From assembly GCA_964385505.1 (NCBI GenBank), contig CAYLPI010000006.1, forward strand, positions 1-56,174: a DNA stretch of 56,174 nucleotides, given 5' to 3'. Below the pieces are notes generated by a model, which made no database searches, was not told the DNA's origin, and saw only the letters and a program-made list of their open reading frames with translations. Made by a program: the position numbers and the translations under genes. Source of the DNA: an uncultured Bordetella sp. Its GTDB lineage: Bacteria; Pseudomonadota; Gammaproteobacteria; Burkholderiales; SG8-39. Positions 5,370 through 16,695 of the stretch are shown here, in pieces; position 1 is the stretch's first letter; each line of letters opens with the position of its first letter.

Positions 5370-5534
5370 GGCGGCGGAATCGGCTTTGCGGGTGGATTTG
5401 AGCACGGTGACTGATGCTACAAAGGGCAAAATGTATTGTCAATCAGACAACTTGCGGCGTTTATCGTCGATTCACCGGCGTGGGCGGGTTCGTCGGGTTT
5501 GCTATCGCGACGCCGTTCCGGTAACGTGCGGTAG

Positions 5535-7629
<2,095 letters not shown>

Positions 7630-7761
7630 ACGCATGAATCAGAATGCAATGGCCATGCAATGGCGCAAAATCATTGCGGCTGCGGGCTTCAGGCCCGGGG
7701 AATCCGGCGATCCACGCGGCGGTAGCGGTGTTGCGGCCGGTGTCGCCGGGTCCGGCCGTTA

Positions 7762-8043
7762 TCAGAGGTCGAGGTCGTCGGTGAGGTCGTCGGCGAGGTC
7801 TTCGGCCGACAGCAGCAATTCCCCAATACTGTCTTCGGGTAATTCGTCATCGGCGATGGCTGTGGCATCAACCGCCTCATCGTAGCGCGACAACTCGGTG
7901 TTGTAGCCCTTGCCGGTATAGGTGTCGAGCGGGCGGCAGACGCGCGGTTTCAGATTCCATTTTGCGGCATGGTCAAGGGCGGCCTTGATCGTGTCCTTGT
8001 CGAGGATCAGAGCGAAGCGGTTCGGCTGTATGGTGCTGTTCAT
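7762..8043 (-). CDS. Small hypothetical protein with a strongly acidic C-terminal tail
   Basis: 93-aa ORF from the ATG at 8041-8043 with a gggaga RBS. Tail reads DATAIADDELPEDSIGELLLSAEDLADDLTDDLDL. I recognise no family. Confidence 0.5.
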   Translation of the reverse strand: MNSTIQPNRFALILDKDTIKAALDHAAKWNLKPRVCRPLDTYTGKGYNTELSRYDEAVDATAIADDELPEDSIGELLLSAEDLADDLTDDLDL

Positions 8044-8183
8044 GTCGATCTCCCGTGGTGGTTGGAATGCCAGGCTGACGGGAATCACTTTATGCCGGCA
8101 TCGTTAAAAACATAAGTCGGCCGGTACCGCTGCTTTGTGTAGGATAAATTCCTATAGCGGGTGTGTTTCCGGCCGAGGCATGT

Positions 8184-8217
8184 GGCTGGAAACGCCCGAC
8201 TGGCGCGGCTTTCAGGG
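8184..8217 (+). repeat. REP-like hairpin element, copy A
   Basis: GGCTGGAAACGCCCGACTGGCGCGGCTTTCAGGG. Shares the core with copies at 18131, 24418 and 33022. Confidence 0.75.
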
Positions 8218-8240
8218 TGCCTGCCCGGGCGTTTTTGGAT

Positions 8241-8705
8241 TTACGCGCCGGGTGCCGCCGGCCGGTTTTTCCACACCAGCGCGTCCAGCGCCAGCCGGCC
8301 CGGGCCATGCAACAGCGTCACCAGCAGCAGCACCGCCCAGTAGGCGTGCTGCGCCAGCGCCGGCTCGAGGTCTTTGAGCACATGCCAGTAGGCGACAACG
8401 GCCACGGCGTTGAGTATGAACAGCGCCGCCGCGGAAAAACGGCTGGCCAGGCCCAGCGCCAGCAGCACCGGGAACACCAGTTCGCCGAAGGTGCCGAGCG
8501 CGGCAGCCAGCTCAGGCGGCAGCAGCGGCACGTGGTATTCGTCCTCGAACAAGGCGACGGTGTTTTCCCAACTGGCAATCTTGGTCAGGCCGGCGGAGAA
8601 GAAAATCTTTGCCACATAAAGCCGTATGCCGAGGTCGAGCAGCGTGCCGCCGTGGTTCAGCCAGGTGCGCGTATCGTCGAGAAGGACGGCTATTTTTGCG
8701 TTCAT
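8241..8705 (-). CDS. DoxX-family inner-membrane protein (fourth gene of the RiPP operon)
   Basis: MNAKIAVLLDDTRTWLNHGGTLLDLGIRLYVAKIFFSAGLTKIASWENTVALFEDEY... with four predicted TM helices. 52 nt downstream of the DUF2063 gene. Confidence 0.8.
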   Translation of the reverse strand: MNAKIAVLLDDTRTWLNHGGTLLDLGIRLYVAKIFFSAGLTKIASWENTVALFEDEYHVPLLPPELAAALGTFGELVFPVLLALGLASRFSAAALFILNAVAVVAYWHVLKDLEPALAQHAYWAVLLLVTLLHGPGRLALDALVWKNRPAAPGA

Positions 8706-8757
8706 GGTGCTGCTCCTGTTGCGCTCCGGTGCCTGCATCAGGCAGGTTCAGGCAAGT

Positions 8758-9546
8758 TCACGCAAGTGTGAAGTCAATGATCACGCGCTGTGCAACCCAG
8801 CGTTGCAGGGCGGCATCGGGCATGAAACCCGGGTCTGCGGCCGTCGCTGCGGTGAGGGCCGCGCCAAGCGTGTTGCCGCCGGCCAGCGCATTGAGGAAGG
8901 CGGATTCGCCCGCGGCAAGCGCCTCGACCACGACACGCAGCTGTGGACGCAGTACCAGAACCGTCGATGGGCCGGCATCCAGGTCGACGCTGAATTCGCC
9001 GGCGAAGTCGTGCTGGTGCACCTGCCAGATGCGCGCCAGCGGCCAGTCCGATTGCAGCAACGCGCAGGCCGGATGCAGCCACAGGCGCAAATGCGTCAGA
9101 TCGTCTGCGGCAATGGCGGCGAGCCGGCTGCCGTCGAAGGCCGCATGATCGGCGGCGTAGTGGGCGCGCTGCGCCAGCCACTCCATGCGCGCGACGTCGG
9201 CGAGGTAGGGCAATGCCTGCGCCGGTTCGAACGCGGCAAGGAAGTCGCCGAAAGTGTCGCCATATTCGTTGAGGTCGCCGCTGGCAGACGGATGCCGTAG
9301 CGCGTAGGCGCGCGCCAGCCCTTCGAAAAATTCAACACCGGTGATGGTTGCCGTGATCGGATAAATCGCCGCCAGCGCCTTGTGTGCATTGGCGCTGGAG
9401 TTGCCGCGGTAAATGGCGAGGCAACGTTTGATGCGCGCGGGCTCGCCGCGAAACAGCGGCACCGCCCCGGCCATTCCGGTCGCGGCTTTGCCGCCGGAAG
9501 CGAGCGCTGCGGCGAACCCGGACTGGATGGCCGCCAACTCAGACAT
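8758..9546 (-). CDS. DUF2063-family protein (partner subunit of the DUF692 oxidase, BufC/GigC-like)
   Basis: 262-aa ORF (…[19 protein letters not shown]…[11 protein letters not shown]…). Its start overlaps the DUF692 stop by 8 nt. Confidence 0.8.
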
Positions 9547-10393
9547 GTTCGGCCTCCATGCGGGCCGCCGCGCTCGCCGCCTCGCCTAGCAGCACGCCGA
9601 GTTCGGGTACATCGGTGTCCCATTCGATCAGCGTGGGCACCGGCCCGAACAGCGCGAGCGCCGCGTCGTACAGGCACCACACCGCGGGCGCAACCGCCGC
9701 GCCGTGGTCGTCTATCAGCGCGTCGTCCGTGACCAGATGGCCGGCAAGATGGATTTCGGCCACGCTGGCGCGCGGCAGAGCGGCCATGGCGGCCATTGCC
9801 GCCAGTGCGTCGCCGCCGTGGTTGACCTGGTTGATCTGGTTGACGTAGAGATTGTTGACGTCAAGCAGGATGCCGCAACCGGAACGCCGCACGAGTTCGG
9901 ATAAAAACTCGCCCTCGGACATGTCGCTGGCGCGAAACGCCACGTAACTGGATACGTTTTCGATCAGGATGCGCCGCCCCAGTGCGTCCTGTACGCGTTG
10001 TACGCGGGCGTTCATGTGGGCCAGCGCCTCTTCGGTGTGGGGCAATGGCAGCAGGTCGTTGAAGTGGCGGCCGCGGTGCGCACCCCAGCACAGGTGTTCG
10101 GAAACGAGCGCGGGTTCGAAGCGTGATACCAGGCGTTTGAGTTTTGCCAGATGCCGCTCGATGCGCGCATCGTCGTCGGTGCTGGCCGCCGAGCCGAGCG
10201 CGAGTCCGACGCCGTGCAGGCTGAGCGCATGGTTTTGACGCACGTGTTCGAGCACGTGCAAGTCGTAGCCGCCCTCGCCAAAGTAATTTTCACTGTGCAC
10301 CTCAACCCAGGGCACCGGCGGTGTGGTGTCGAGAAAATCGCGGTAATGACGCGCACGCAAGCCGATGCCGGCGCCGTGCAGTTGCGGAGTCAT
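9539..10393 (-). CDS. DUF692-family multinuclear non-heme iron oxidase (MNIO; MbnB/BufB/GigB-like)
   Basis: 284-aa TIM-barrel-type ORF: GIGLRARHY…VEVHSENYF…LSLHGVGL…VSEHLCW…LIENVSSY…[10 protein letters not shown]…EIHLAGH…IDDHG…LIEWD, the conserved metal-ligand pattern. Confidence 0.85.
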
Positions 10394-10479
10394 GTCAGGG
10401 TATGCGGGCGCCGGCCATCCGGACCGGAATTCGATCAGGGTGGTCCGGCGCGCGGGTTCATGAATATGGACGGGAGCGA

Positions 10480-10770
10480 TCAGCCCTTTTTTTCCATTTT
10501 TTTGTCCATCTTGGATGTCAGCTTGCCACCCATTTTTTCGCAGCTACCCTTGGCTGTGTACTTCCATTCATCGGGTGACATGTCCACTTTGGACTGGCCG
10601 GCGCACGAATGCGTGCCTGCTGCGTTGGCGCAGTCGTTCTGGCCGGCTTTGGCGATGCCAAAGCATTTTTCCTTGGCTGCGGCCTTGTCCTGGGCGGTGG
10701 CGGTGCCGGCGGCGGCACCAAGGGCGATCATGCCGGCGAGGGCGGCGCGGATAAGGGTTTGCTGATTCAT
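10480..10770 (-). CDS. DUF2282-family secreted Cys-rich RiPP precursor (bufferin/GigA-like)
   Basis: [26 protein letters not shown]|[70 protein letters not shown]. Sec signal peptide, four Cys in the family spacing, ggagga RBS. Confidence 0.85.
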
Positions 10771-11008
10771 GGTGAATCCTCCAGTCAATTAAGTTAGGTC
10801 GAAAGTCGATGCGGGAAAGCTGTTCCCGAGCTTTGGTCGGCGCTGTTGATGATTCCTTACGCTTTCATTGCCCTCGGCGTCTGGTCGGGGGTGGAAGCCC
10901 GGGTGTTGATATGCCCCGTACTGTGCTGCCGCAAATTGCGTTTCCGGGCCTGGATGTCGCATTTTCATGAGCCGCCGGGAAGGATGCGGCTTCGGCTGTC
11001 GCGCTACG

Positions 11009-11692
11009 CTATACCAGCAGTCCGGGCAGGCCGGCGAGATCTGAAATTTCGGCGTCCGGTGTCGCCGGGATGCGTTCCGGTTGCTGGCCGAGGCGGTTAC
11101 ACCAGACCGCTTTCAGACCGAATGCCTTTGCCGAGAAGGCGTCCCAGGCGTTCGAGGACACAAAACAGATACGCGAGGGGGCGATGTTCAGTCGTTCCGG
11201 TGCGAGGCGGTAAACCGAGGGATGGGGCTTGAAGATGCCCACCTCCTCGACCGACAGCACGGCATCGAACAGGTTTTGCAAGTTCGCAGCATTGATGGCT
11301 GCCTCGAGCATCGCCGGCGTGCCGTTGGAGAGAATCGCGAGTTTTCGGCCGCTCGCCTGCAGGCTACGGAGTGTTGCCGGGACCTCTGGAAAACTGCTCA
11401 GCCCGAGGTATGAATTCATCAAGCTTTCGCGCAGCTCCGGGCTGGATCGCCCGGTTGCGGCCAGTGCAAAATCGAGCGCATCGCCGGTCACCGTCCAGAA
11501 GTCGGCATGGTGTCCGGCCAGCCCCCGCAGCCAGGTATATTGCAGTTGCTTCTGCCGCCAAAGCTCGGAAACGCGCTGCCAGTCATCTCCAAGTTCGCTG
11601 CGCTTGGCGCTTGACGCACTGTTGAAGTCGAACAGCGTGCCATAGGCATCGAAAACGCAGGCCTCTATCCCTTCCAATGCCGGATTACTCAT
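11009..11692 (-). CDS. Type II L-2-haloacid dehalogenase (HAD superfamily)
   Basis: From the ATG at 11690-11692: MSNPALEGIEACVFDAYGTLFDFNS (nucleophile motif DxYGTLxD), ILSNGTP, FVSSNAWD. Confidence 0.8.
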   Translation of the reverse strand: MSNPALEGIEACVFDAYGTLFDFNSASSAKRSELGDDWQRVSELWRQKQLQYTWLRGLAGHHADFWTVTGDALDFALAATGRSSPELRESLMNSYLGLSSFPEVPATLRSLQASGRKLAILSNGTPAMLEAAINAANLQNLFDAVLSVEEVGIFKPHPSVYRLAPERLNIAPSRICFVSSNAWDAFSAKAFGLKAVWCNRLGQQPERIPATPDAEISDLAGLPGLLV

Positions 11693-11756
11693 CGGTACAT
11701 ACTCCAGAGTGGCGCGTCGTTGCTGGCGCAGGTCGCAAGCACGCCGCAGGACATTT

Positions 11757-13853
11757 TCATTGCGAATTATTTTTTTTACGCTTCCTCGCCAGCGCCGGCG
11801 ATTCGGCTGCGGCATACGCGGCCAGCCCGGCCGGGCGATCAAGCGGCACGACCGTATCCATTCTGGTGCCACCCGGCGGTTGCAACGTCGGCGGGAAGAA
11901 CGCAAGTTTTTGCGTCCCGCCGAGCTTGTCTTCGCGTCCGGGGGCAAGGTCGCGCTCGTTCACGCCGCGCGGCGTGGTCGCGACGCCGTTGACGATTTCC
12001 AGGTCGAACCACCAGCGCTTGACGGCGTTGCGCGCGCCGCCGCCCACGTTGTCGTCATGGGCAATCAGTGCCTTGCGCGCCGAGGGTACGTTGATCGACA
12101 GCCACAACAGGCGCTCGGACTCGACAAGGTCCTCGCGGTTATAAGGACAGGTTTTCATGCAGCGCCCGCAGGCCGAGCCCTTCATGTTGGTAAGCCGGTA
12201 TTTGCCGCACTTTTCCACGTCCGGCTTCCAGATCTCGTAGCCGTTGTACATCACCTTGGGACCGAAAGGGATGGCATTGCAGGGACACTCGCGCGCGCAC
12301 TTGAGACACATCTGGCACGTCGCCTGCAGGCCGAAATCGATGGGTTTGTCGGCGATGAGCGGCAGGTCTGTGGTGAAGACGACCGACTTGGAGCGCGGAC
12401 CGATGAAGGGGTTGAGGATGAGTTCGCCGATGCGCGAGAGTTCGCCCAATCCGGCCATCAACACGGCCGGCAGGTGCAGTACTTCGGAGTGGGCGTTGGA
12501 GTGGACGCGCGCCGAATGCCCCATGCGCCGCAGGTGCGCCGCCATTACGCCGGCGAGCATGGCGCCGCGCATGTAACCGCGCATCGATTGTGCGCCGGAA
12601 ATCCAGTCATCGCCCGATGCGCCTTCCATGGTCTCGAAGCCCTGGTCGATGAGCATCACCACTGCATACGGATGGTAGGGCTCGATCGGCTTCCCCTCGT
12701 TCTCATCGTGCGAGTAGTACATCCAGGGTTCGGCCTTGCAGATACCGACCAGATCGGCGCCAAGGTAGTAGCCGAGCGCCTTGATCGCCTCGACGTTCTT
12801 CGCCGGATCCGAGGTGTCACCACCGAAGCCCGTCGGCGCCAGCGGCTCGCGCGTTCCCTGCACCGGCACCATGTTCCGGATCAACGGCGTCATGGCAAAG
12901 GCGAGCGGGTGCTTGACGGCAAACCGTGTGCGTTCGTGCTTTGGTTTTTCACCCAGGTCGCCCGCCAGTGCACGCGTGAACAGGTCGGCCCGCTTGGGCA
13001 CGCGGCGGATTTCCTCCGCAATGATCAGGGTGGTCGGCTCGTCCACACGTTTGATCTTCTCCATTTCGTAGCGGCCCATGTGCACCGGGCGGGACGCCAG
13101 TTCGGCGTCGTGCCATCCGGGGCGCGTGCCCATCCGGCCCATATAGGCATCGCTATCGTGCCAATCGAGTCTGGCTCCGGGGGCGATCGGGGTGTCGGGT
13201 GTGAGCGTGAAATCGGTCGTCACCACGCCCAGCCGAAAGCCGCCGCTTATGTATGGTGCGCGAAGCGCGCCATTCTTGTCGACGACGATGCCGGCGCGCT
13301 GTGCGAGGCGTTCGATTGAAACCGCGGTCGTCCCGGCGGCATGACCCTGCGCCGACCAGCCGAGCGCACGGACATAGCCGGCGAGGACCACCGCAGCCTC
13401 GGCACATCGGAGGTCGGTGCGCGCGGCGTTGGTGCCGCGTATCCAGGCATCGCCGGACTCGCCGGCCCTGGGTTCGCGGCCGAACTCGATCAGGAACACC
13501 AGCGCGTGGGTGTGGTGTGGATGCCCGGTGTCGGTCCAGTCGGTCGGATCAATCGCGCACGTCCCCGCCAGGCTGGCATCCAGAAAATAGGCGGAGGCCT
13601 TGAGGTTTCGTGCACGGATCAGCGGGTCGTCGGGGACCGGCGCCCTGGCGGTCGCGGGTGCGCCAACGAGGTATCTGGCGAAGAGTTCGCGATATTCGAG
13701 CACGGCGCCGTCAATGGCATCAGGACCGGAGGCAACCCCGTCTGTGGGCATCAGTGCATCGCCGACCGGCGCGCATGGCACGCGCTCGATCAGTTCGGTG
13801 GGCAAAATGCCCATGTCAAAGGGGCGATCCTTGCTCGAAAAAAGTCGCGACAT
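11757..13853 (-). CDS. Reductive dehalogenase homologue, cytoplasmic catabolic type (NpRdhA-like architecture)
   Basis: 698 aa. C-terminal CQMCLKCARECPCNAIP plus C-x12-CGRCMKTCPYN (two 4Fe-4S motifs). Internally duplicated Rdh-like core. No RR signal peptide and no adjacent rdhB anchor gene. Confidence 0.65.
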   Translation of the reverse strand: MSRLFSSKDRPFDMGILPTELIERVPCAPVGDALMPTDGVASGPDAIDGAVLEYRELFARYLVGAPATARAPVPDDPLIRARNLKASAYFLDASLAGTCAIDPTDWTDTGHPHHTHALVFLIEFGREPRAGESGDAWIRGTNAARTDLRCAEAAVVLAGYVRALGWSAQGHAAGTTAVSIERLAQRAGIVVDKNGALRAPYISGGFRLGVVTTDFTLTPDTPIAPGARLDWHDSDAYMGRMGTRPGWHDAELASRPVHMGRYEMEKIKRVDEPTTLIIAEEIRRVPKRADLFTRALAGDLGEKPKHERTRFAVKHPLAFAMTPLIRNMVPVQGTREPLAPTGFGGDTSDPAKNVEAIKALGYYLGADLVGICKAEPWMYYSHDENEGKPIEPYHPYAVVMLIDQGFETMEGASGDDWISGAQSMRGYMRGAMLAGVMAAHLRRMGHSARVHSNAHSEVLHLPAVLMAGLGELSRIGELILNPFIGPRSKSVVFTTDLPLIADKPIDFGLQATCQMCLKCARECPCNAIPFGPKVMYNGYEIWKPDVEKCGKYRLTNMKGSACGRCMKTCPYNREDLVESERLLWLSINVPSARKALIAHDDNVGGGARNAVKRWWFDLEIVNGVATTPRGVNERDLAPGREDKLGGTQKLAFFPPTLQPPGGTRMDTVVPLDRPAGLAAYAAAESPALARKRKKNNSQ

Positions 13854-13880: not shown

Positions 13881-14474
13881 CTAAGCCGGCTGGCGCTCGT
13901 GCTTGACCGCGTCCCAGCCGTGCGCGGCGAGGAATTTCTCCCCCACCGCCACCGGTTCGGCCTCGAGCGGGGTGGCGAAGGTGTCGTTCCACCGGTTCAG
14001 AAATCCGAACATGGCGATGACCCCGACAATTTCGACAATCTGGTTTTCGGACCAGTGCTCGCGCATTTGCGCAAACATGGCGTCGGTGACGTCATTGGGC
14101 ACTGCCCCCGCCGCGAGGGCGAAATCCAGCGCGACTCGTTCAGCCGCCGAGTAAAGCGGGCTGGTGTTGTATTCCCAGATTGCAGCCACTTTTGCCTCGT
14201 CCACGCCTTTGTGCAGCGCGCCGCCGGCGGTGTGGGCCATACAGTACTGGCAACCGGCTGCGCGGCTTGCAACAAGGGCGATCAGGCGTCTGAAGCCGAC
14301 GTCCACTTCGCCTTCGGGGTCCCAGACCGCGGCATTCAACTGCATGAACGCTTTCACGAGTTTCGGCTTGCGCTGCATGATGAGCAGGCTGTTGGGCACG
14401 AAGCCCAGGTTCCTGCGTGAAGCTTCGAATACGTCCTGCAGTTCCGGTGAGTGCGCCGCGGGCAGCGGTTGCAT
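13881..14474 (-). CDS. Carboxymuconolactone decarboxylase/AhpD-like peroxidase-related protein
   Basis: From the ATG at 14472-14474: MQPLPAAHSPELQDVF…LVASRAAGCQYCMAHTAG (CxxC-x-H AhpD-core motif). Confidence 0.75.
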   Translation of the reverse strand: MQPLPAAHSPELQDVFEASRRNLGFVPNSLLIMQRKPKLVKAFMQLNAAVWDPEGEVDVGFRRLIALVASRAAGCQYCMAHTAGGALHKGVDEAKVAAIWEYNTSPLYSAAERVALDFALAAGAVPNDVTDAMFAQMREHWSENQIVEIVGVIAMFGFLNRWNDTFATPLEAEPVAVGEKFLAAHGWDAVKHERQPA

Positions 14475-14550
14475 GCGCGGGGTGGGTAACTGTCGGTTGT
14501 TCAATTTGTGTTCCTTGTTCAGGGCGGGTTGTGTGGCGAAACGCCGGCTG

Positions 14551-15078
14551 TCAGGCTTCGCCGCGCGCCGGATAGTTTTTGCTGACGACAAAGTCGATTG
14601 CCTGGACGATTTCATTGAAATGGGGACGGGCAAAAGGCATCGTCGATACTGACGACCAGTACAGCGTGCCGTCGGGCTTGACGAGGAACAGTCCGGGTTC
14701 GGCAAACAGCGCCGGCTCTTCAATGCCGGCCGACGTCGGGCCGCGGCCGGCGGAAATGAACAGGCCCCATTGCCGCGCTGATTCGATGCTGACACCGTAA
14801 CCCACGGTCAGTCCGGACAGGCCCCATTGCGTTTTCGCCTGCTCGGCGCGTTCGGCGCTGTCGGTGCTGGTGACCACGGTGGAGACGCCGCGCTTGTCGA
14901 AATCGCCGATCAGGGTGTTGAGTTCTCCGGTATAGCGCCGGCACTGCGGGCAATGCAGGCCGCGGTAAAACACGATCATTGTGAACGCCTGCGGCGTCTG
15001 CGCTGCAAGAGACCAGCGGCCACCGCCTGTGAGTTCGAATTCCAGAGCGGGTGTGGGTTGTCGTGGTTTGAGGCTCAT
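14551..15078 (-). CDS. Peroxiredoxin-like (AhpC/TSA-redoxin fold) protein
   Basis: 175 aa with MIVFYRGLHCPQCRRY, a thioredoxin-fold CxxC. Start forms an ATGA overlap with the tetR stop. Confidence 0.7.
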   Translation of the reverse strand: MSLKPRQPTPALEFELTGGGRWSLAAQTPQAFTMIVFYRGLHCPQCRRYTGELNTLIGDFDKRGVSTVVTSTDSAERAEQAKTQWGLSGLTVGYGVSIESARQWGLFISAGRGPTSAGIEEPALFAEPGLFLVKPDGTLYWSSVSTMPFARPHFNEIVQAIDFVVSKNYPARGEA

Positions 15079-15755
15079 GAAGGGTTCCTTTTTTCTGGTG
15101 ACCGGTTGCGGGACGGGGTGAAAGGGGTTGCCGGATCAGGCGCGCGCGCCATGGCAAACATGCCGGCATGCGGCGGGCAAACGATGCGCAGCATGACCTG
15201 CGCGATATCGTTCAGCGTAGCGCGATCAGCCTGCGCCTTGCCGATCAGGCGCAGGCCCTGAATGCTGGCGGTCAGAAAGCGCGCGAGCGCCGTCACATCG
15301 GCGTCGGCGGCAATTTCGCCGCGAGCTCTGGCGCGGGTGAGGCCATGGCGGAAAGCCGCCTCTATGCGTCCGAGGCTGCGTCTTACGCGGCTCGAAACAC
15401 CGCGGTTCTGTCTTGCCGCTTCAGCGGCGCAGTTGCCGATAAGGCAGCCGCGCCGTCCCGGTCCGGCAACAATATCCTCTATCATTTGCGTGAGAAATTC
15501 ACGCAGCGCCGAGGCGATCGGCGCCGGCCCGGCCAGTGCCGATTCTATCCGGCTGATCGCGGCGTCCTCATAACGCGCGAGCGCGCGAAGATACATCGCC
15601 TGCTTGCTGCCGAAAGCCGCATAAAGGCTGGAACGGCCCAGCCCCGTGGCATCGCACAAGTCATCGAGGGAAGTCGATTCAAAGCCCTTGCGCCAGAACA
15701 CCTGCATCGCCCGGTTGAGGACGATGTCGGGCTCATATTCAAGAGGACGGGCCAT
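15075..15755 (-). CDS. TetR/AcrR-family transcriptional regulator (first gene of the dehalogenase operon)
   Basis: MARPLEYEPDIVLNRAMQVFWRKGFESTSLDDLCDATGLGRSSLYAAFGSKQAMY, the canonical TetR HTH. Confidence 0.85.
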   Translation of the reverse strand: MARPLEYEPDIVLNRAMQVFWRKGFESTSLDDLCDATGLGRSSLYAAFGSKQAMYLRALARYEDAAISRIESALAGPAPIASALREFLTQMIEDIVAGPGRRGCLIGNCAAEAARQNRGVSSRVRRSLGRIEAAFRHGLTRARARGEIAADADVTALARFLTASIQGLRLIGKAQADRATLNDIAQVMLRIVCPPHAGMFAMARAPDPATPFTPSRNRSPEKRNPS

Positions 15756-15814: not shown

Positions 15815-16492
15815 ATGGCAATACGCATGTTCAATATTGCGAACTCGGGCAACGGGGCGAAGCTGCTCATGCAGCGCCGCGCCAATGCCCATCCTTGCGT
15901 CAGCGTTGGGAATGGGGGACGGTTGAAGCCTGATGACGACATAAGCGCGGAAATAGCCAACGCCCGCGAGTACCTGTACCGGTTCGCTTTCTGGCAGTTG
16001 CGCAATGCCACATGGGCAGATGACGTGGTGTCAGAAACCCTGGTGGCCGCGCTTGAAGCGAAAGACCGCTTTGCCGGACGCGCCCAGGTCAAGACCTGGC
16101 TGGTGGGGATCCTGAAAAACAAGATAATCGATCATATCCGCCTTGGACGACGGGAGATCGTGAGGCAGTTGCAATCTGAAAGCACGGATGACGAACTCGA
16201 GGCGCTCTTGTTCACCGCTGCCGGCGAGTATCGCGAACCCCGGCACCATTGGGGCGATCCCGAAGCCGCGCTGGGGCGCGGCCAGTTCTTCGCGGTCCTT
16301 GAGGCTTGCATGTCCCGGTTGCCGGACAATCAGGGACGCGTATTCATGATGCGCGAATGGCTGGAACTGTCGACCGAAGAAATCTGTAAGGAATTGCAGA
16401 TTACATCGTCCAATGCCTGGATACTCCTGCACCGTGCGCGTCTGCGCCTGCAAGAGTGCGTGAATATCAACTGGTTCGAGAAAATAAAATGA
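15815..16492 (+). CDS. ECF (group IV sigma-70) RNA polymerase sigma factor
   Basis: Region 2 (YLYRFAFWQLRNATWADDVVSETL…KTWLVGILKNKIIDHIR) and region 4 (VFMMREWLELSTEEICKELQITSSNAWILLHRARLRL). Start is uncertain: ATGs at 15815, 15827 and 15869. Confidence 0.8.
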   Translation: MAIRMFNIANSGNGAKLLMQRRANAHPCVSVGNGGRLKPDDDISAEIANAREYLYRFAFWQLRNATWADDVVSETLVAALEAKDRFAGRAQVKTWLVGILKNKIIDHIRLGRREIVRQLQSESTDDELEALLFTAAGEYREPRHHWGDPEAALGRGQFFAVLEACMSRLPDNQGRVFMMREWLELSTEEICKELQITSSNAWILLHRARLRLQECVNINWFEKIK

Positions 16493-16695
16493 AATTCCCG
16501 ATGCCTTCGTGCCGCGACACGGTGAGAATCATTCTCGCCAGAGAGGACCGCGACCTGTCGTGGCGCGAGCGCCTCGGGCTGCGCGTGCACCTGGTCATTT
16601 GCAGGGCCTGTCCCGGTTTTGAGCGGCGCGTGTTGTTCATGCGCGGCGCACTGGCGCACTGGCGTGCTTTTTCCGCCGAAAAACCGGGTGATTGA
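16489..16695 (+). CDS. Small zinc-binding (ZAS, zf-HC2) anti-sigma factor
   Basis: 68 aa. Its ATG overlaps the sigma stop (ATGA). HLVICRACPGF matches the H-x3-C-x2-C motif. Confidence 0.7.
   Translation: MKFPMPSCRDTVRIILAREDRDLSWRERLGLRVHLVICRACPGFERRVLFMRGALAHWRAFSAEKPGD

What the first reader, a model, noticed from the sequence alone, without database searches (positions are those of the whole stretch)
8241..10770. Four-gene MNIO RiPP operon: DUF2282 precursor, DUF692 oxidase, DUF2063 partner, DoxX (bufferin/gig type)
Seen: four co-directional, tightly packed minus-strand genes. They are a 96-aa precursor with a Sec leader and four Cys, a DUF692 TIM-barrel enzyme with the full His/Asp/Glu ligand pattern, a DUF2063 gene overlapping it by 8 nt, and a DoxX membrane protein. 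Established: DUF692 enzymes (MbnB-type multinuclear non-heme iron oxidases) act with a partner subunit on Cys residues of ribosomal peptides. The DUF2282/DUF692/DUF2063/DoxX layout matches the gold/copper-induced gig cluster of Cupriavidus and the recently described bufferins, periplasmic copper-chelating peptides in which Cys is converted to 5-thiooxazole. Inference: this locus makes an uncharacterised member of that young class. The class is widely mis-annotated as hypothetical or 'putative signal peptide' genes, and the role of DoxX is unknown. This is the most likely natural-product or stress system in the window.
Basis: partly seen in the sequence, partly recalled or inferred. Interest (0 to 1): 0.85.

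Follow-up and report, generated by a model that had tools for sequence, protein, structure and literature searches.

The report
Ordinary bufferin (Buf1) copper-peptide operon
This is an intact four-gene operon for a bufferin, a small secreted peptide whose cysteines are enzymatically turned into copper-binding rings; it is a textbook member of a very large family that was characterised in 2024-2026, so it is real but ordinary.

Summary
Four co-directional minus-strand genes lie at 8241-10770:
- a 96-aa DUF2282/BufA1 precursor with a Sec-type leader and four Cys;
- a 284-aa MNIO that scores above NCBIfam's curated cut-off for the BufB equivalog model and has all nine iron-site residues;
- a 262-aa DUF2063 partner overlapping it by 8 nt;
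- a DoxX membrane protein.

It is a canonical Buf1 cluster in an uncultured Burkholderiales bacterium. All 80 related genome loci examined keep precursor-MNIO-partner in this order, and all 80 aligned precursors (window plus 79 loci) keep the four Cys.

The family is the largest known group of MNIO RiPPs, with thousands of clusters and curated models named for it. The novelty is therefore only "new member of a known kind" and the interest is low.

Additions from this work:
- an ECF-type promoter-like motif (GTAAGG-N15-CGAC, 10836-10860) is conserved upstream of bufA, but no sigF/nrsF pair lies in the window;
- a clade-specific conserved hairpin lies in the predicted 5' leader;
- a Lys/Met-rich C-terminal tail is shared by about a third of the closest precursors;
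- an aerobic NpRdhA-type reductive dehalogenase cluster lies immediately upstream.

The modification chemistry, copper binding and induction remain inferred.

The parts
10836..10860 (-). ECF-type promoter-like motif GTAAGG-N15-CGAC upstream of bufA (predicted -35/-10); the transcription start is expected near 10828-10830, about 60 nt before the ATG
   Evidence: It is the only match in the 56-kb window. It sits in a conserved block upstream of bufA in L007-L009 while the flanks diverge. The same layout occurs in L046, L060, L070 and L075, and as canonical GTAACC-N16-CGAA in L014 and L053, which carry sigF-nrsF next to bufA. The motif class is found in 11 of 78 upstream regions against 0.16 expected in random segments. 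The Caulobacter sigmaF consensus is GTAACC-N16-CGAA, with the buf1 start site at -61 (PMC3511200). Function is inferred, not shown.
10810..10827 (-). Invariant 18-mer GGGAACAGCTTTCCCGCA with a GGGAA/TTCCC inverted repeat, predicted to form a hairpin near the 5' end of the bufA leader
   Evidence: Identical in the window and in L007, L008 and L009 although the surrounding leader has diverged. It folds as a 6-bp stem (the whole-leader energy is not significant, z -1.4). Other lineages have different hairpins at the same place. Role unknown; mRNA stability or an operator are possibilities.
10778..10782 (-). Shine-Dalgarno GGAGG of bufA, 7 nt before the ATG
   Evidence: Read directly from the sequence; conserved in the upstream alignment.
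10480..10770 (-). bufA1: 96-aa bufferin-1 precursor. Sec-type signal at residues 1-26 (10693-10770). The 70-aa core (10483-10692) has Cys at core positions 10, 21, 30 and 51 and a Lys/Met-rich C-terminal tail [14 protein letters not shown]
   Evidence: Pfam DUF2282 86.6 bits. The four Cys, the AKAG-x-NDC and H-x-CAG motifs and the GG after CysIV are invariant or at least 90% conserved in 80 sequences. 3388 homologous clusters were found. In the low-confidence AF2 model CysI lies on a strand and CysIV on a short helix.
10405..10454 (-). Stable stem-loop in the bufA-bufB intergenic region, a possible attenuator or stabiliser that would raise precursor mRNA over enzyme mRNA
   Evidence: MFE -30.9 kcal/mol, z -2.0. 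Comparable hairpins occur in the close relatives L007 and L009, but this is not a family-wide feature (median z -0.26 over 62 loci). There is no U-tract. Weak evidence.
9539..10393 (-). bufB: multinuclear non-haem iron oxidase (MNIO, formerly DUF692), the Cys-modifying enzyme
   Evidence: Pfam PF05114 327.5 bits. NCBIfam MNIO_BufB 351.7 against a cut-off of 310. Nine iron-site residues conserved. Closest solved structure 3BWW, E 9e-34.
8758..9546 (-). bufC: DUF2063 partner protein of the MNIO (N-terminal DUF2063 domain plus C-terminal alpha/beta domain); its start overlaps the bufB stop by 8 nt
   Evidence: Pfam DUF2063 66.5 bits. NCBIfam HvfC match over residues 40-253, below cut-off. AF2 model pLDDT 91.6. 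Foldseek hits are TglI 8HI7_A (E 9e-5, TM 0.59) and NGO1945 3DEE (E 5e-4, TM 0.50/0.63).
8241..8705 (-). bufD: DoxX-family integral membrane protein (154 aa; the ORF also has an upstream ATG at 8738)
   Evidence: Pfam DoxX 61.6 bits. NCBIfam HvfX family 61.3 bits, below the cut-off of 80. AGGAG lies before the 8705 ATG. The 154-aa form is called on 5 of the 6 contigs listed. A homolog is detectable downstream of bufC in about a third of related loci.
8190..8234 (-). Stem-loop just after the bufD stop codon; a weak candidate for the operon's terminator
   Evidence: MFE -26 kcal/mol but z only -1.3, and only UUU follows. The consensus terminator scan did not flag it. Tentative.

Best explanation
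The locus is a complete bufferin-1 (Buf1, gig-type) biosynthetic operon, bufA1-B1-C1-D1, of an uncultured Burkholderiales bacterium.

Proposed mechanism, by homology with Caulobacter Buf1:
1. The 96-aa precursor is made in the cytoplasm.
2. The BufB-BufC heterodimer (a multi-iron oxidase plus its DUF2063 partner) uses O2 to oxidise the two central Cys (precursor 47 and 56, core 21 and 30) by four electrons each, giving 5-thiooxazole rings.
3. The precursor is exported by Sec, and the 26-residue signal is cut after Ala-Thr-Ala.
4. In the periplasm CysI and CysIV (core 10 and 51) form a disulfide.
5. The folded 70-residue peptide chelates Cu(I)/Cu(II) through the thiooxazole sulfurs and nitrogens. 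This buffers excess periplasmic copper.
6. Transcription probably starts from an ECF-sigma-dependent, stress-induced promoter about 60 nt upstream of bufA. The cognate sigma factor lies outside the window.
7. DoxX is an accessory membrane protein not needed for the modification.

Shown here: gene content, family membership, conservation of catalytic and substrate residues, partner-protein fold, synteny, and conservation of the promoter motif.

Inferred from the family: the chemistry, export, disulfide, copper binding and induction.
For: - Family assignments pass curated cut-offs: DUF2282, MNIO/BufB equivalog, DUF2063 and DoxX.
- All nine MNIO iron-site residues are present and at least 97% conserved, and match the ligand list of MbnB (PMC9060507).
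- The four Cys and their flanking motifs are invariant in 80 precursors, with Cys spacing 11/9/21 against 11/8/21 in Caulobacter Buf1.
- The BufC model matches the solved MNIO partners TglI and NGO1945.
- bufB and bufC overlap by 8 nt, consistent with a stoichiometric complex.
- The A-B-C order is kept in 80 of 80 genome loci.
- Experimental basis in the family: Cys to 5-thiooxazole, the CysI-CysIV disulfide, Sec export, Cu binding, the requirement for BufB and BufC but not DoxX, and sigmaF control (PMC11626156). 5-thiooxazole is general for MNIO-DUF2063 clusters (PMC13097082).
- The promoter motif is conserved and enriched upstream of bufA and resembles the mapped sigmaF promoter of Caulobacter buf1.
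Against: - No experiment exists on this locus or organism (metagenome contigs only).
- No sigF/nrsF pair and no copper-resistance gene was identified among the genes examined, roughly +/-10 kb of the operon. A tblastn for NrsF across the whole window was negative. The rest of the 56-kb window was not annotated.
- The promoter motif departs from the Caulobacter consensus at 3 of 10 specified positions and has a 15-nt spacer.
- The AF2 model of the precursor is low-confidence (pLDDT 53), so the disulfide geometry is not supported structurally.
- In Cupriavidus the gig operon is only a minor copper defence, and family members also respond to Au, Cd and Cr. Copper specificity here is therefore an assumption.
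Confidence: 0.85

Rival explanations
1. Same biosynthesis, different physiological role. The peptide mainly answers another stress, such as other thiophilic metals (Au, Cd, Cr, Hg) or reactive chlorine/oxidative stress, rather than copper. The Met/Lys-rich tail and the neighbouring redox and dehalogenase genes would be part of that response.
For: - Homologous operons are induced by gold, cadmium and chromate.
- SigF/NrsF systems respond to hypochlorite/chlorite in Azospira, where they drive a periplasmic Met-rich scavenger peptide (PMC4436054).
- The window's precursor carries three Met within 15 residues after CysIV, two of them (M88, M92) spaced i, i+4 in the tail proper.
- TetR, AhpC-like, CMD/AhpD-like, NpRdhA-like and haloacid dehalogenase genes are co-directional immediately upstream.
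- The TetR-AhpC-CMD module recurs near buf in five other loci, in different arrangements.
- MerC-bufferin fusions suggest roles with other metals.
Against: - The only demonstrated function of a Buf1 peptide is copper chelation with a growth benefit under Cu.
- In Caulobacter the operon was not induced by peroxide, paraquat or diamide.
- The neighbour association is seen in only 5 of 80 loci, all uncultured Burkholderiales-like lineages. It could be inherited synteny.
- bufA has its own conserved promoter block and a 238-nt gap from the dehalogenase gene.
Confidence: 0.1
2. The cluster is a copper-acquisition (chalkophore-like) system, as methanobactin is, rather than a defensive periplasmic buffer.
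For: BufB is homologous to MbnB (E 4e-8). Both systems make Cu-binding heterocycles from Cys.
Against: - The precursor has a Sec signal and a folded 70-residue core instead of a short leader/core peptide.
- BufB fails the MbnB model (51.5 against 325 bits) and passes BufB.
- The partner is DUF2063, not MbnC.
- No MATE exporter, TonB-dependent receptor or MbnE/T-like gene lies within +/-10 kb.
- The literature contrasts bufferins with methanobactins on exactly this point.
Confidence: 0.03
3. The operon is silent or decayed in this organism and makes no product.
For: No expression data exist. No cognate sigma/anti-sigma pair is adjacent.
Against: - All four ORFs are full length against their models, with every catalytic and substrate residue intact.
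- A strong Shine-Dalgarno sequence and translational coupling are present.
- The BufB protein is identical on all 16 contigs carrying it, and all four buf proteins are identical on the six fetched, which come from six different samples.
- The promoter block is conserved among relatives.
Confidence: 0.02

Closest known systems
Caulobacter vibrioides buf1 operon (CCNA_03363-03366 = CC3254-CC3257), bufferin 1
   Same: - Same four genes in the same order: DUF2282 precursor, MNIO, DUF2063, DoxX.
- Similar sizes: 93/280/254/150 aa there against 96/284/262/154 here.
- Four Cys with nearly identical spacing.
- Sec-type signal.
- ECF-type promoter about 60 nt upstream of the start codon.
   Different: - No sigF-nrsF next to the operon here.
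- The promoter is GTAAGG-N15-CGAC rather than GTAACC-N16-CGAA.
- The CysII-CysIII spacing is one residue longer.
- The core carries a Lys/Met-rich C-terminal tail.
- The host is an uncultured betaproteobacterium.
- No direct sequence alignment to the Caulobacter proteins could be made, because their sequences were not retrievable with these tools.
Cupriavidus metallidurans gig (gold-induced genes) operon, RMET_RS24090-RS24075
   Same: Four-gene DUF2282/DUF692/DUF2063/DoxX layout in a member of the Burkholderiales; the literature classes it as a Buf1 cluster.
   Different: Induction by Au/Cu and the minor copper-resistance phenotype are known there and untested here. The sequences were not compared directly.
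Buf2 (BUF_6/12Cys) bufferins
   Same: Sec-exported precursor, BufB-like MNIO, DUF2063 partner, thiooxazole chemistry, copper role.
   Different: Buf2 has six or twelve Cys, no DoxX in Caulobacter, and no sigma/NrsF genes in its clusters. The window's precursor scores only 26.8 bits against the BufA2 model, whose cut-off is 60.
EGKCG-repeat peptides: oxazolin / HvfABC(X) of non-typeable Haemophilus, fontiphorin, gonophorin ('captophorins')
   Same: MNIO plus DUF2063 (PME1) partner, often DoxX; Cys converted to 5-thiooxazole; Cu binding. The solved relatives 3BWW and 3DEE come from this group.
   Different: The precursor type differs: repeats of EGKCG rather than a folded four-Cys DUF2282 domain. 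The window's enzyme, partner and DoxX all fall below the HvfB, HvfC and HvfX cut-offs.
Methanobactin MbnABC
   Same: Homologous MNIO with the same iron-ligand set; a Cys-derived heterocycle that binds copper.
   Different: - The product is oxazolone/thioamide rather than 5-thiooxazole.
- The partner is MbnC rather than DUF2063.
- The precursor is a short leader/core peptide with dedicated export and uptake genes.
- The role is copper acquisition, not buffering.

Membership tests
Buf1 (DUF2282) bufferin biosynthetic gene cluster | Precursor of the DUF2282/BufA1 family, 80-120 residues | tested here: met
   96 aa. Pfam PF10048 86.6 bits against 22.4. The same model is labelled BufA1 in the precomputed annotations.
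Buf1 (DUF2282) bufferin biosynthetic gene cluster | Four conserved Cys (CysI-CysIV) in the core | tested here: met
   C36, C47, C56 and C77 are 100% conserved in 80 sequences. Core positions are 10/21/30/51 against 12/23/31/52 in Caulobacter Buf1.
Buf1 (DUF2282) bufferin biosynthetic gene cluster | N-terminal Sec signal peptide on the precursor | tested here: met
   Arg8, a 14-residue hydrophobic stretch and Ala-x-Ala before Gln27. Hydropathy peaks at residues 6-21, and the model has a helix at 3-20. Judged by inspection; no dedicated signal-peptide predictor was available.
Buf1 (DUF2282) bufferin biosynthetic gene cluster | MNIO enzyme of the BufB type with intact iron sites | tested here: met
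   NCBIfam MNIO_BufB equivalog 351.7 against a cut-off of 310. The HvfB, ApyH, MbnB and ChrH models all score below their cut-offs. Nine ligand positions are conserved.
Buf1 (DUF2282) bufferin biosynthetic gene cluster | DUF2063 partner protein with a C-terminal RRE-related domain, encoded directly after the MNIO | tested here: met
   Pfam DUF2063 66.5 bits. 8-nt overlap with bufB. The high-confidence model matches TglI and NGO1945 over 225-251 alignment columns. The C-terminal half is a strand-helix domain. Its RRE nature was not tested separately.
Buf1 (DUF2282) bufferin biosynthetic gene cluster | DoxX gene as fourth core gene | tested here: met
   Pfam DoxX 61.6 bits. It lies immediately after bufC, with a gap of 52 nt to the 8705 start.
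Buf1 (DUF2282) bufferin biosynthetic gene cluster | Central Cys converted to 5-thiooxazole; CysI-CysIV disulfide; product absorbs near 305 nm | not testable with these tools
   Needs MS/NMR/UV of the product. Predicted masses are given.
Buf1 (DUF2282) bufferin biosynthetic gene cluster | Copper binding and a growth benefit under copper stress | not testable with these tools
   Known for Caulobacter Buf1 only.
SigF/NrsF (ECF) regulon, as for Caulobacter buf1 | sigF and nrsF (DUF1109) genes next to the cluster | tested here: not met
   tblastn with the L014 NrsF and SigF finds no NrsF in the window. The only ECF sigma (15827-16492) is of the TIGR02943 type, has a 68-aa zf-HC2 anti-sigma, and has no such motif upstream.
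SigF/NrsF (ECF) regulon, as for Caulobacter buf1 | Promoter GTAACC-N16-CGAA upstream of bufA | tested here: inconclusive
   A related motif, GTAAGG-N15-CGAC, lies at the expected distance and is conserved and enriched among relatives. It differs at 3 specified positions and in spacer length. Relatives with similar CGAC-type motifs carry ECF+DUF3379 rather than SigF/NrsF.
Methanobactin (MbnABC) system | MbnB-type MNIO with MbnC partner and MbnA precursor | tested here: not met
   The MbnB model scores 51.5 against 325 bits. The partner is DUF2063, and MbnC 7TCR_C is not a significant structural match (E 9.9). The precursor is DUF2282.

The most novel reading that the evidence does not exclude
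The Lys/Met-rich C-terminal tail ([14 protein letters not shown], with Met88 and Met92 spaced i, i+4 on a predicted helix) is shared by about a third of the closest BufA1 relatives and is not discussed in the bufferin papers read here. It could give this Burkholderiales subclade a second activity on the same periplasmic peptide. That activity could be extra Cu(I) sites made of Met thioethers, or sacrificial Met oxidation of the MrpX kind. Either would link bufferins to the oxidant/chlorine-stress arm of ECF regulons and perhaps to the adjacent AhpC/AhpD-like and dehalogenase genes.
Probability: 0.1. Interest if true: 0.45.

Novelty: new member of a known kind. Interest (0 to 1): 0.2.

Why it matters
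It matters little beyond correct annotation. The locus adds one more uncultured-Burkholderiales example to a family already known to hold thousands of clusters, and shows that curated models now recognise it outright.

The by-products are modestly useful:
- The ECF-type promoter upstream of bufA is conserved even where no sigma/anti-sigma pair is adjacent. At least three different regulator pairings occur among close relatives: SigF+NrsF, ECF+DUF3379, or none nearby.
- A Met/Lys-rich tail marks a sizeable subclade of precursors. It could be tested for an effect on metal stoichiometry or oxidant scavenging.
- The role of DoxX remains open, but this locus offers no special handle on it.

Tried and rejected
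1. Sequence search of BufC, BufD and BufA against PDB sequences found nothing. BufC was resolved only by structure prediction plus Foldseek.
2. The AF2 model of the precursor had pLDDT 53. It was too poor for a fold search or to test the disulfide, and was used only qualitatively.
3. I tested whether the window's own ECF sigma (15827-16492) is the regulator. Its upstream region lacks the bufA motif, and it is only locally similar (42% over 60 aa) to the ECFs adjacent to bufA elsewhere. Not supported.
4. I scanned metagenomes for the invariant 18-mer to find other regulon members. Of 50 hits, only 2 are bufA loci and the rest are unrelated matches. Nothing was learned about a regulon.
5. I tested whether a bufA-bufB intergenic hairpin is a family trait. 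It is not (median z -0.26; 15% of loci with z below -2).
6. The sigma-70 promoter scan found none, and terminator-like hits were at the level expected by chance.
7. Rfam found nothing in the operon. The two sub-threshold hits in the 7000-12000 scan (E 0.095 and 0.69) are on the opposite strand.
8. The downstream 93-aa acidic ORF (7762-8043) was considered as a fifth gene. It matches no family and is absent next to buf in L007 and L009. Rejected.
9. Direct alignment to the Caulobacter or Cupriavidus proteins was not possible. The plasmid search returned 504 records, but Cupriavidus was not among the rows listed.
10. No second precursor or MNIO copy lies in the window.
Full report
**Observation**

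Reading the strand shows these details:
- A GGAGG lies 7 nt before the bufA ATG.
- The second and third genes overlap by 8 nt (ATGTCTGA).
- An AGGAG lies before an internal ATG at 8705. The 154-aa form of the fourth gene is therefore the likelier one, and it is the form called on 5 of the 6 public contigs listed that carry this DNA.

Pfam gives DUF2282 (86.6 bits), MbnB_TglH_ChrH (327.5 bits), DUF2063 (66.5 bits) and DoxX (61.6 bits), all well above gathering scores.

**Source**

The BufB protein is encoded on 16 metagenome contigs; six were fetched, from ENA, JGI and Logan samples, and all carry the same gene order. The nearest genomes are uncultured Burkholderiales MAGs, with BufB identity of 86% in L007 and 77% in L008 and L009. 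The closest named precursor hits are Burkholderiaceae MAG proteins.

**The enzyme**

NCBIfam places the 284-aa protein in the 'MNIO family bufferin maturase' BufB equivalog at 351.7 bits, above the curated cut-off of 310. It fails the HvfB, ApyH, MbnB and ChrH models.

In an alignment of 81 BufB sequences, H60, H100, E145, D178, N181, H215, D228, H230 and E257 are at least 97% conserved.
- HMMER alignments to solved MNIOs put H100, E145, D178 and N181 on MbnB His90, Glu133, Asp163 and Asn166.
- The remaining residues fall in the motifs shared with 3BWW, TglH and a second MbnB.
- The MbnB ligand set (His54, His90, Glu133, Asp163, His192, Glu239; third site Asn166, Asp208, His210) is taken from PMC9060507.

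**The precursor**

The N-terminus (MNQQTLIR / [14 protein letters not shown] / TATA|QD) has the layout of a Sec signal. Cleavage there leaves a 70-residue core with Cys at 10, 21, 30 and 51. Caulobacter Buf1 has Cys at 12, 23, 31 and 52. There the central pair become 5-thiooxazoles and the outer pair form a disulfide (PMC11626156).

Across 80 precursors from related loci, the four Cys, AKAG-x-NDC, H-x-CAG and the GG after CysIV are invariant or nearly so.

The database holds 3388 homologous 90%-identity clusters at E below 1e-5.

An AlphaFold model built on 34 homologs is poor (pLDDT 53). It places CysI on a beta strand and CysIV on a short helix, as described for BufA1. I use that only as consistency, not as evidence.

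**The partner and DoxX**

The DUF2063 protein has no sequence match in the PDB. A model built on 43 homologs is confident (pLDDT 91.6). Its only significant structural matches are the following:
- TglI, the partner of the MNIO TglH (8HI7_A, 8HCI_A);
- NGO1945 (3DEE), the DUF2063 protein of the gonophorin cluster.

NCBIfam's HvfC and HvfX models match BufC and DoxX below cut-off. That fits sister subfamilies.

In Caulobacter, DoxX is needed neither for the modification nor for the copper phenotype.

**Conservation of the unit**

A scan of one genome per GTDB species returned more than 523 relatives of BufB, of which the best 80 were fetched.
- tblastn with the window's proteins finds bufA in 80 of 80 loci, upstream and co-directional in all but L010 and L084, and bufC downstream in 80 of 80.
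- A DoxX similar to the window's is detectable in about a third; it is not detected in the Paraburkholderia set.
- Relatives also sit on 504 plasmid records.

The published surveys call precursor, MNIO, DUF2063 and DoxX the core of bufferin clusters, and describe thousands of them (PMC12452194).

**Regulation (new here, inferred)**

The 238-nt region upstream of bufA aligns with L007-L009 only in one block. That block contains GTAAGG-N15-CGAC (10836-10860, the sole match in the window), followed by an invariant GGGAACAGCTTTCCCGCA (10810-10827).

The same -35/-10 layout recurs upstream of bufA in Undibacterium, Noviherbaspirillum and other MAG loci. It appears as canonical GTAACC-N16-CGAA in L014 and L053, which carry an ECF sigma plus NrsF next to bufA. 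The motif class occurs in 11 of 78 upstream regions, against 0.16 expected in random segments of the same loci.

Caulobacter sigmaF recognises GTAACC-N16-CGAA, and the buf1 transcript starts at -61 (PMC3511200). Here the predicted start is at about -60.

The window has no NrsF. Its one ECF sigma (15827-16492, TIGR02943 type, with a 68-aa zf-HC2 anti-sigma) lacks the motif upstream. It is only locally similar to the ECF+DUF3379 pairs that flank bufA in L017, L031, L037 and L050. The cognate sigma factor is therefore probably encoded elsewhere. Regulator pairing varies among relatives.

**Other small features**
- The 18-mer folds as a short hairpin near the predicted 5' end of the leader. Other lineages have unrelated hairpins at the same position.
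- A metagenome scan for the 18-mer found only two further bufA loci among 50 matches.
- The bufA-bufB spacer holds a stable stem-loop (-30.9 kcal/mol, z -2.0). It is shared by close relatives but is not family-wide.
- The precursor ends in a Lys/Met-rich tail. Of the 120 closest homologs, 42 have three or more Met after CysIV. The bufferin survey does not mention this.

**Mechanism**

By homology, BufB and BufC oxidise Cys47 and Cys56 to 5-thiooxazoles in the cytoplasm. Sec then exports the peptide, signal peptidase cuts after Ala26, and Cys36 and Cys77 form a disulfide. The folded peptide binds Cu(I)/Cu(II) in the periplasm. The 5-thiooxazole assignment has since been extended to other MNIO-DUF2063 systems (PMC13097082; abstracts). 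None of these steps is shown for this locus.

**Rivals**
- A role in another stress (other metals, reactive chlorine) is possible. The grounds are Au/Cd/Cr induction of homologs, SigF/NrsF control of a Met-rich hypochlorite scavenger in Azospira, and the neighbours described below.
- A methanobactin-like acquisition role is rejected on precursor type, partner type, model scores and the absence of export or uptake genes.
- A decayed operon is unlikely, because every functional residue is intact.

**Neighbourhood**

Upstream and co-directional lie five genes:
- a type II haloacid dehalogenase;
- a 685-aa protein very close to the oxygen-tolerant reductive dehalogenase NpRdhA (4RAS, 1009.6 bits);
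- a CMD/AhpD-like protein;
- an AhpC/SelL-like redoxin;
- a TetR regulator.

The TetR-AhpC-CMD module is also within 8 kb of buf in L008, L017, L031, L033 and L037, in different orientations. This may be inherited synteny. I do not count these genes as part of the system.

**Verdict**

It is a canonical member of a family that is now well described and carries its own curated models. Novelty: new member of a known kind. Interest: 0.2.

Noticed in passing
window 11757-13814 (-), with 11009-11692 (-): The 685-aa ORF is a very close homolog of NpRdhA, the oxygen-tolerant catabolic reductive dehalogenase of Nitratireductor pacificus (PDB 4RAS, 1009.6 bits, aligned over residues 2-683). A type II haloacid dehalogenase follows it (TIGR01428, 209 bits). 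Together they look like an aerobic organohalide-catabolism pair, immediately upstream of and co-directional with bufA.
   Followed up: partly
window 13881-15755 (-); also L008, L017, L031, L033, L037: A TetR regulator, an AhpC/SelL-like redoxin and a CMD/AhpD-like 'peroxidase-related' gene form a tight module (TetR and AhpC overlap by 4 nt). This module recurs within 8 kb of bufferin operons in five other Burkholderiales-like loci, on either side and in either orientation. It is either inherited synteny or a loose functional link to the same stress response.
   Followed up: partly
window 15827-16695 (+): An ECF sigma factor of the TIGR02943/PRK12520 type has an overlapping 68-aa zf-HC2 anti-sigma factor. 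The pair is divergent from the TetR gene. Its upstream region has a GAACTT...GTCC-like element, not the bufA motif, so it is probably not the bufferin regulator.
   Followed up: partly
L014 6129-7531; L053; L050 4368-5617; L037 5902-7136; L031; L017: Regulators next to Buf1 operons differ among close relatives. L014 and L053 have SigF plus NrsF, with a GTAACC-N16-CGAA promoter. L050, L037, L031 and L017 have a different ECF sigma plus a DUF3379 protein, with GTAA..-N15/16-CGAC-type promoters in L050 and L037. The ECF+DUF3379 pairing is not listed among the bufferin-cluster domains in the survey paper read here.
   Followed up: partly
window 10483-10527 (-), tail of the precursor; P0001-P0120: Lys/Met-rich C-terminal tails with repeated M-D/E-K-K units follow CysIV in 42 of the 120 closest BufA1 homologs. 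Paraburkholderia precursors lack them. They are not mentioned in the bufferin papers consulted.
   Followed up: partly
window 7762-8043 (-): A 93-aa ORF with a strongly acidic C-terminus (…DDELPEDSIGELLLSAEDLADDLTDDLDL) matches no Pfam or NCBIfam family. It lies 198 nt downstream of bufD. It is conserved in L008 (68%) but absent next to buf in L007 and L009.
   Followed up: partly
window 5532-5638 (+): A TPP riboswitch (Rfam RF00059, 62.7 bits) precedes thiC (5716-7629, +). thiC converges on the 93-aa ORF that follows the bufferin operon.
   Followed up: yes
L089, L096, L097, L102, L112, L115, L117, L124, L127, L136: About ten of the chance metagenome hits to the 18-mer share a longer identical flank (agggatgaacgcagcgagcccaactttttacaagatggccctttgGGGAACAGCTTTCCCGCAaccattggttggaagcattt). 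This looks like the end of a repeated or mobile element in soil metagenomes, unrelated to bufferins.
   Followed up: no
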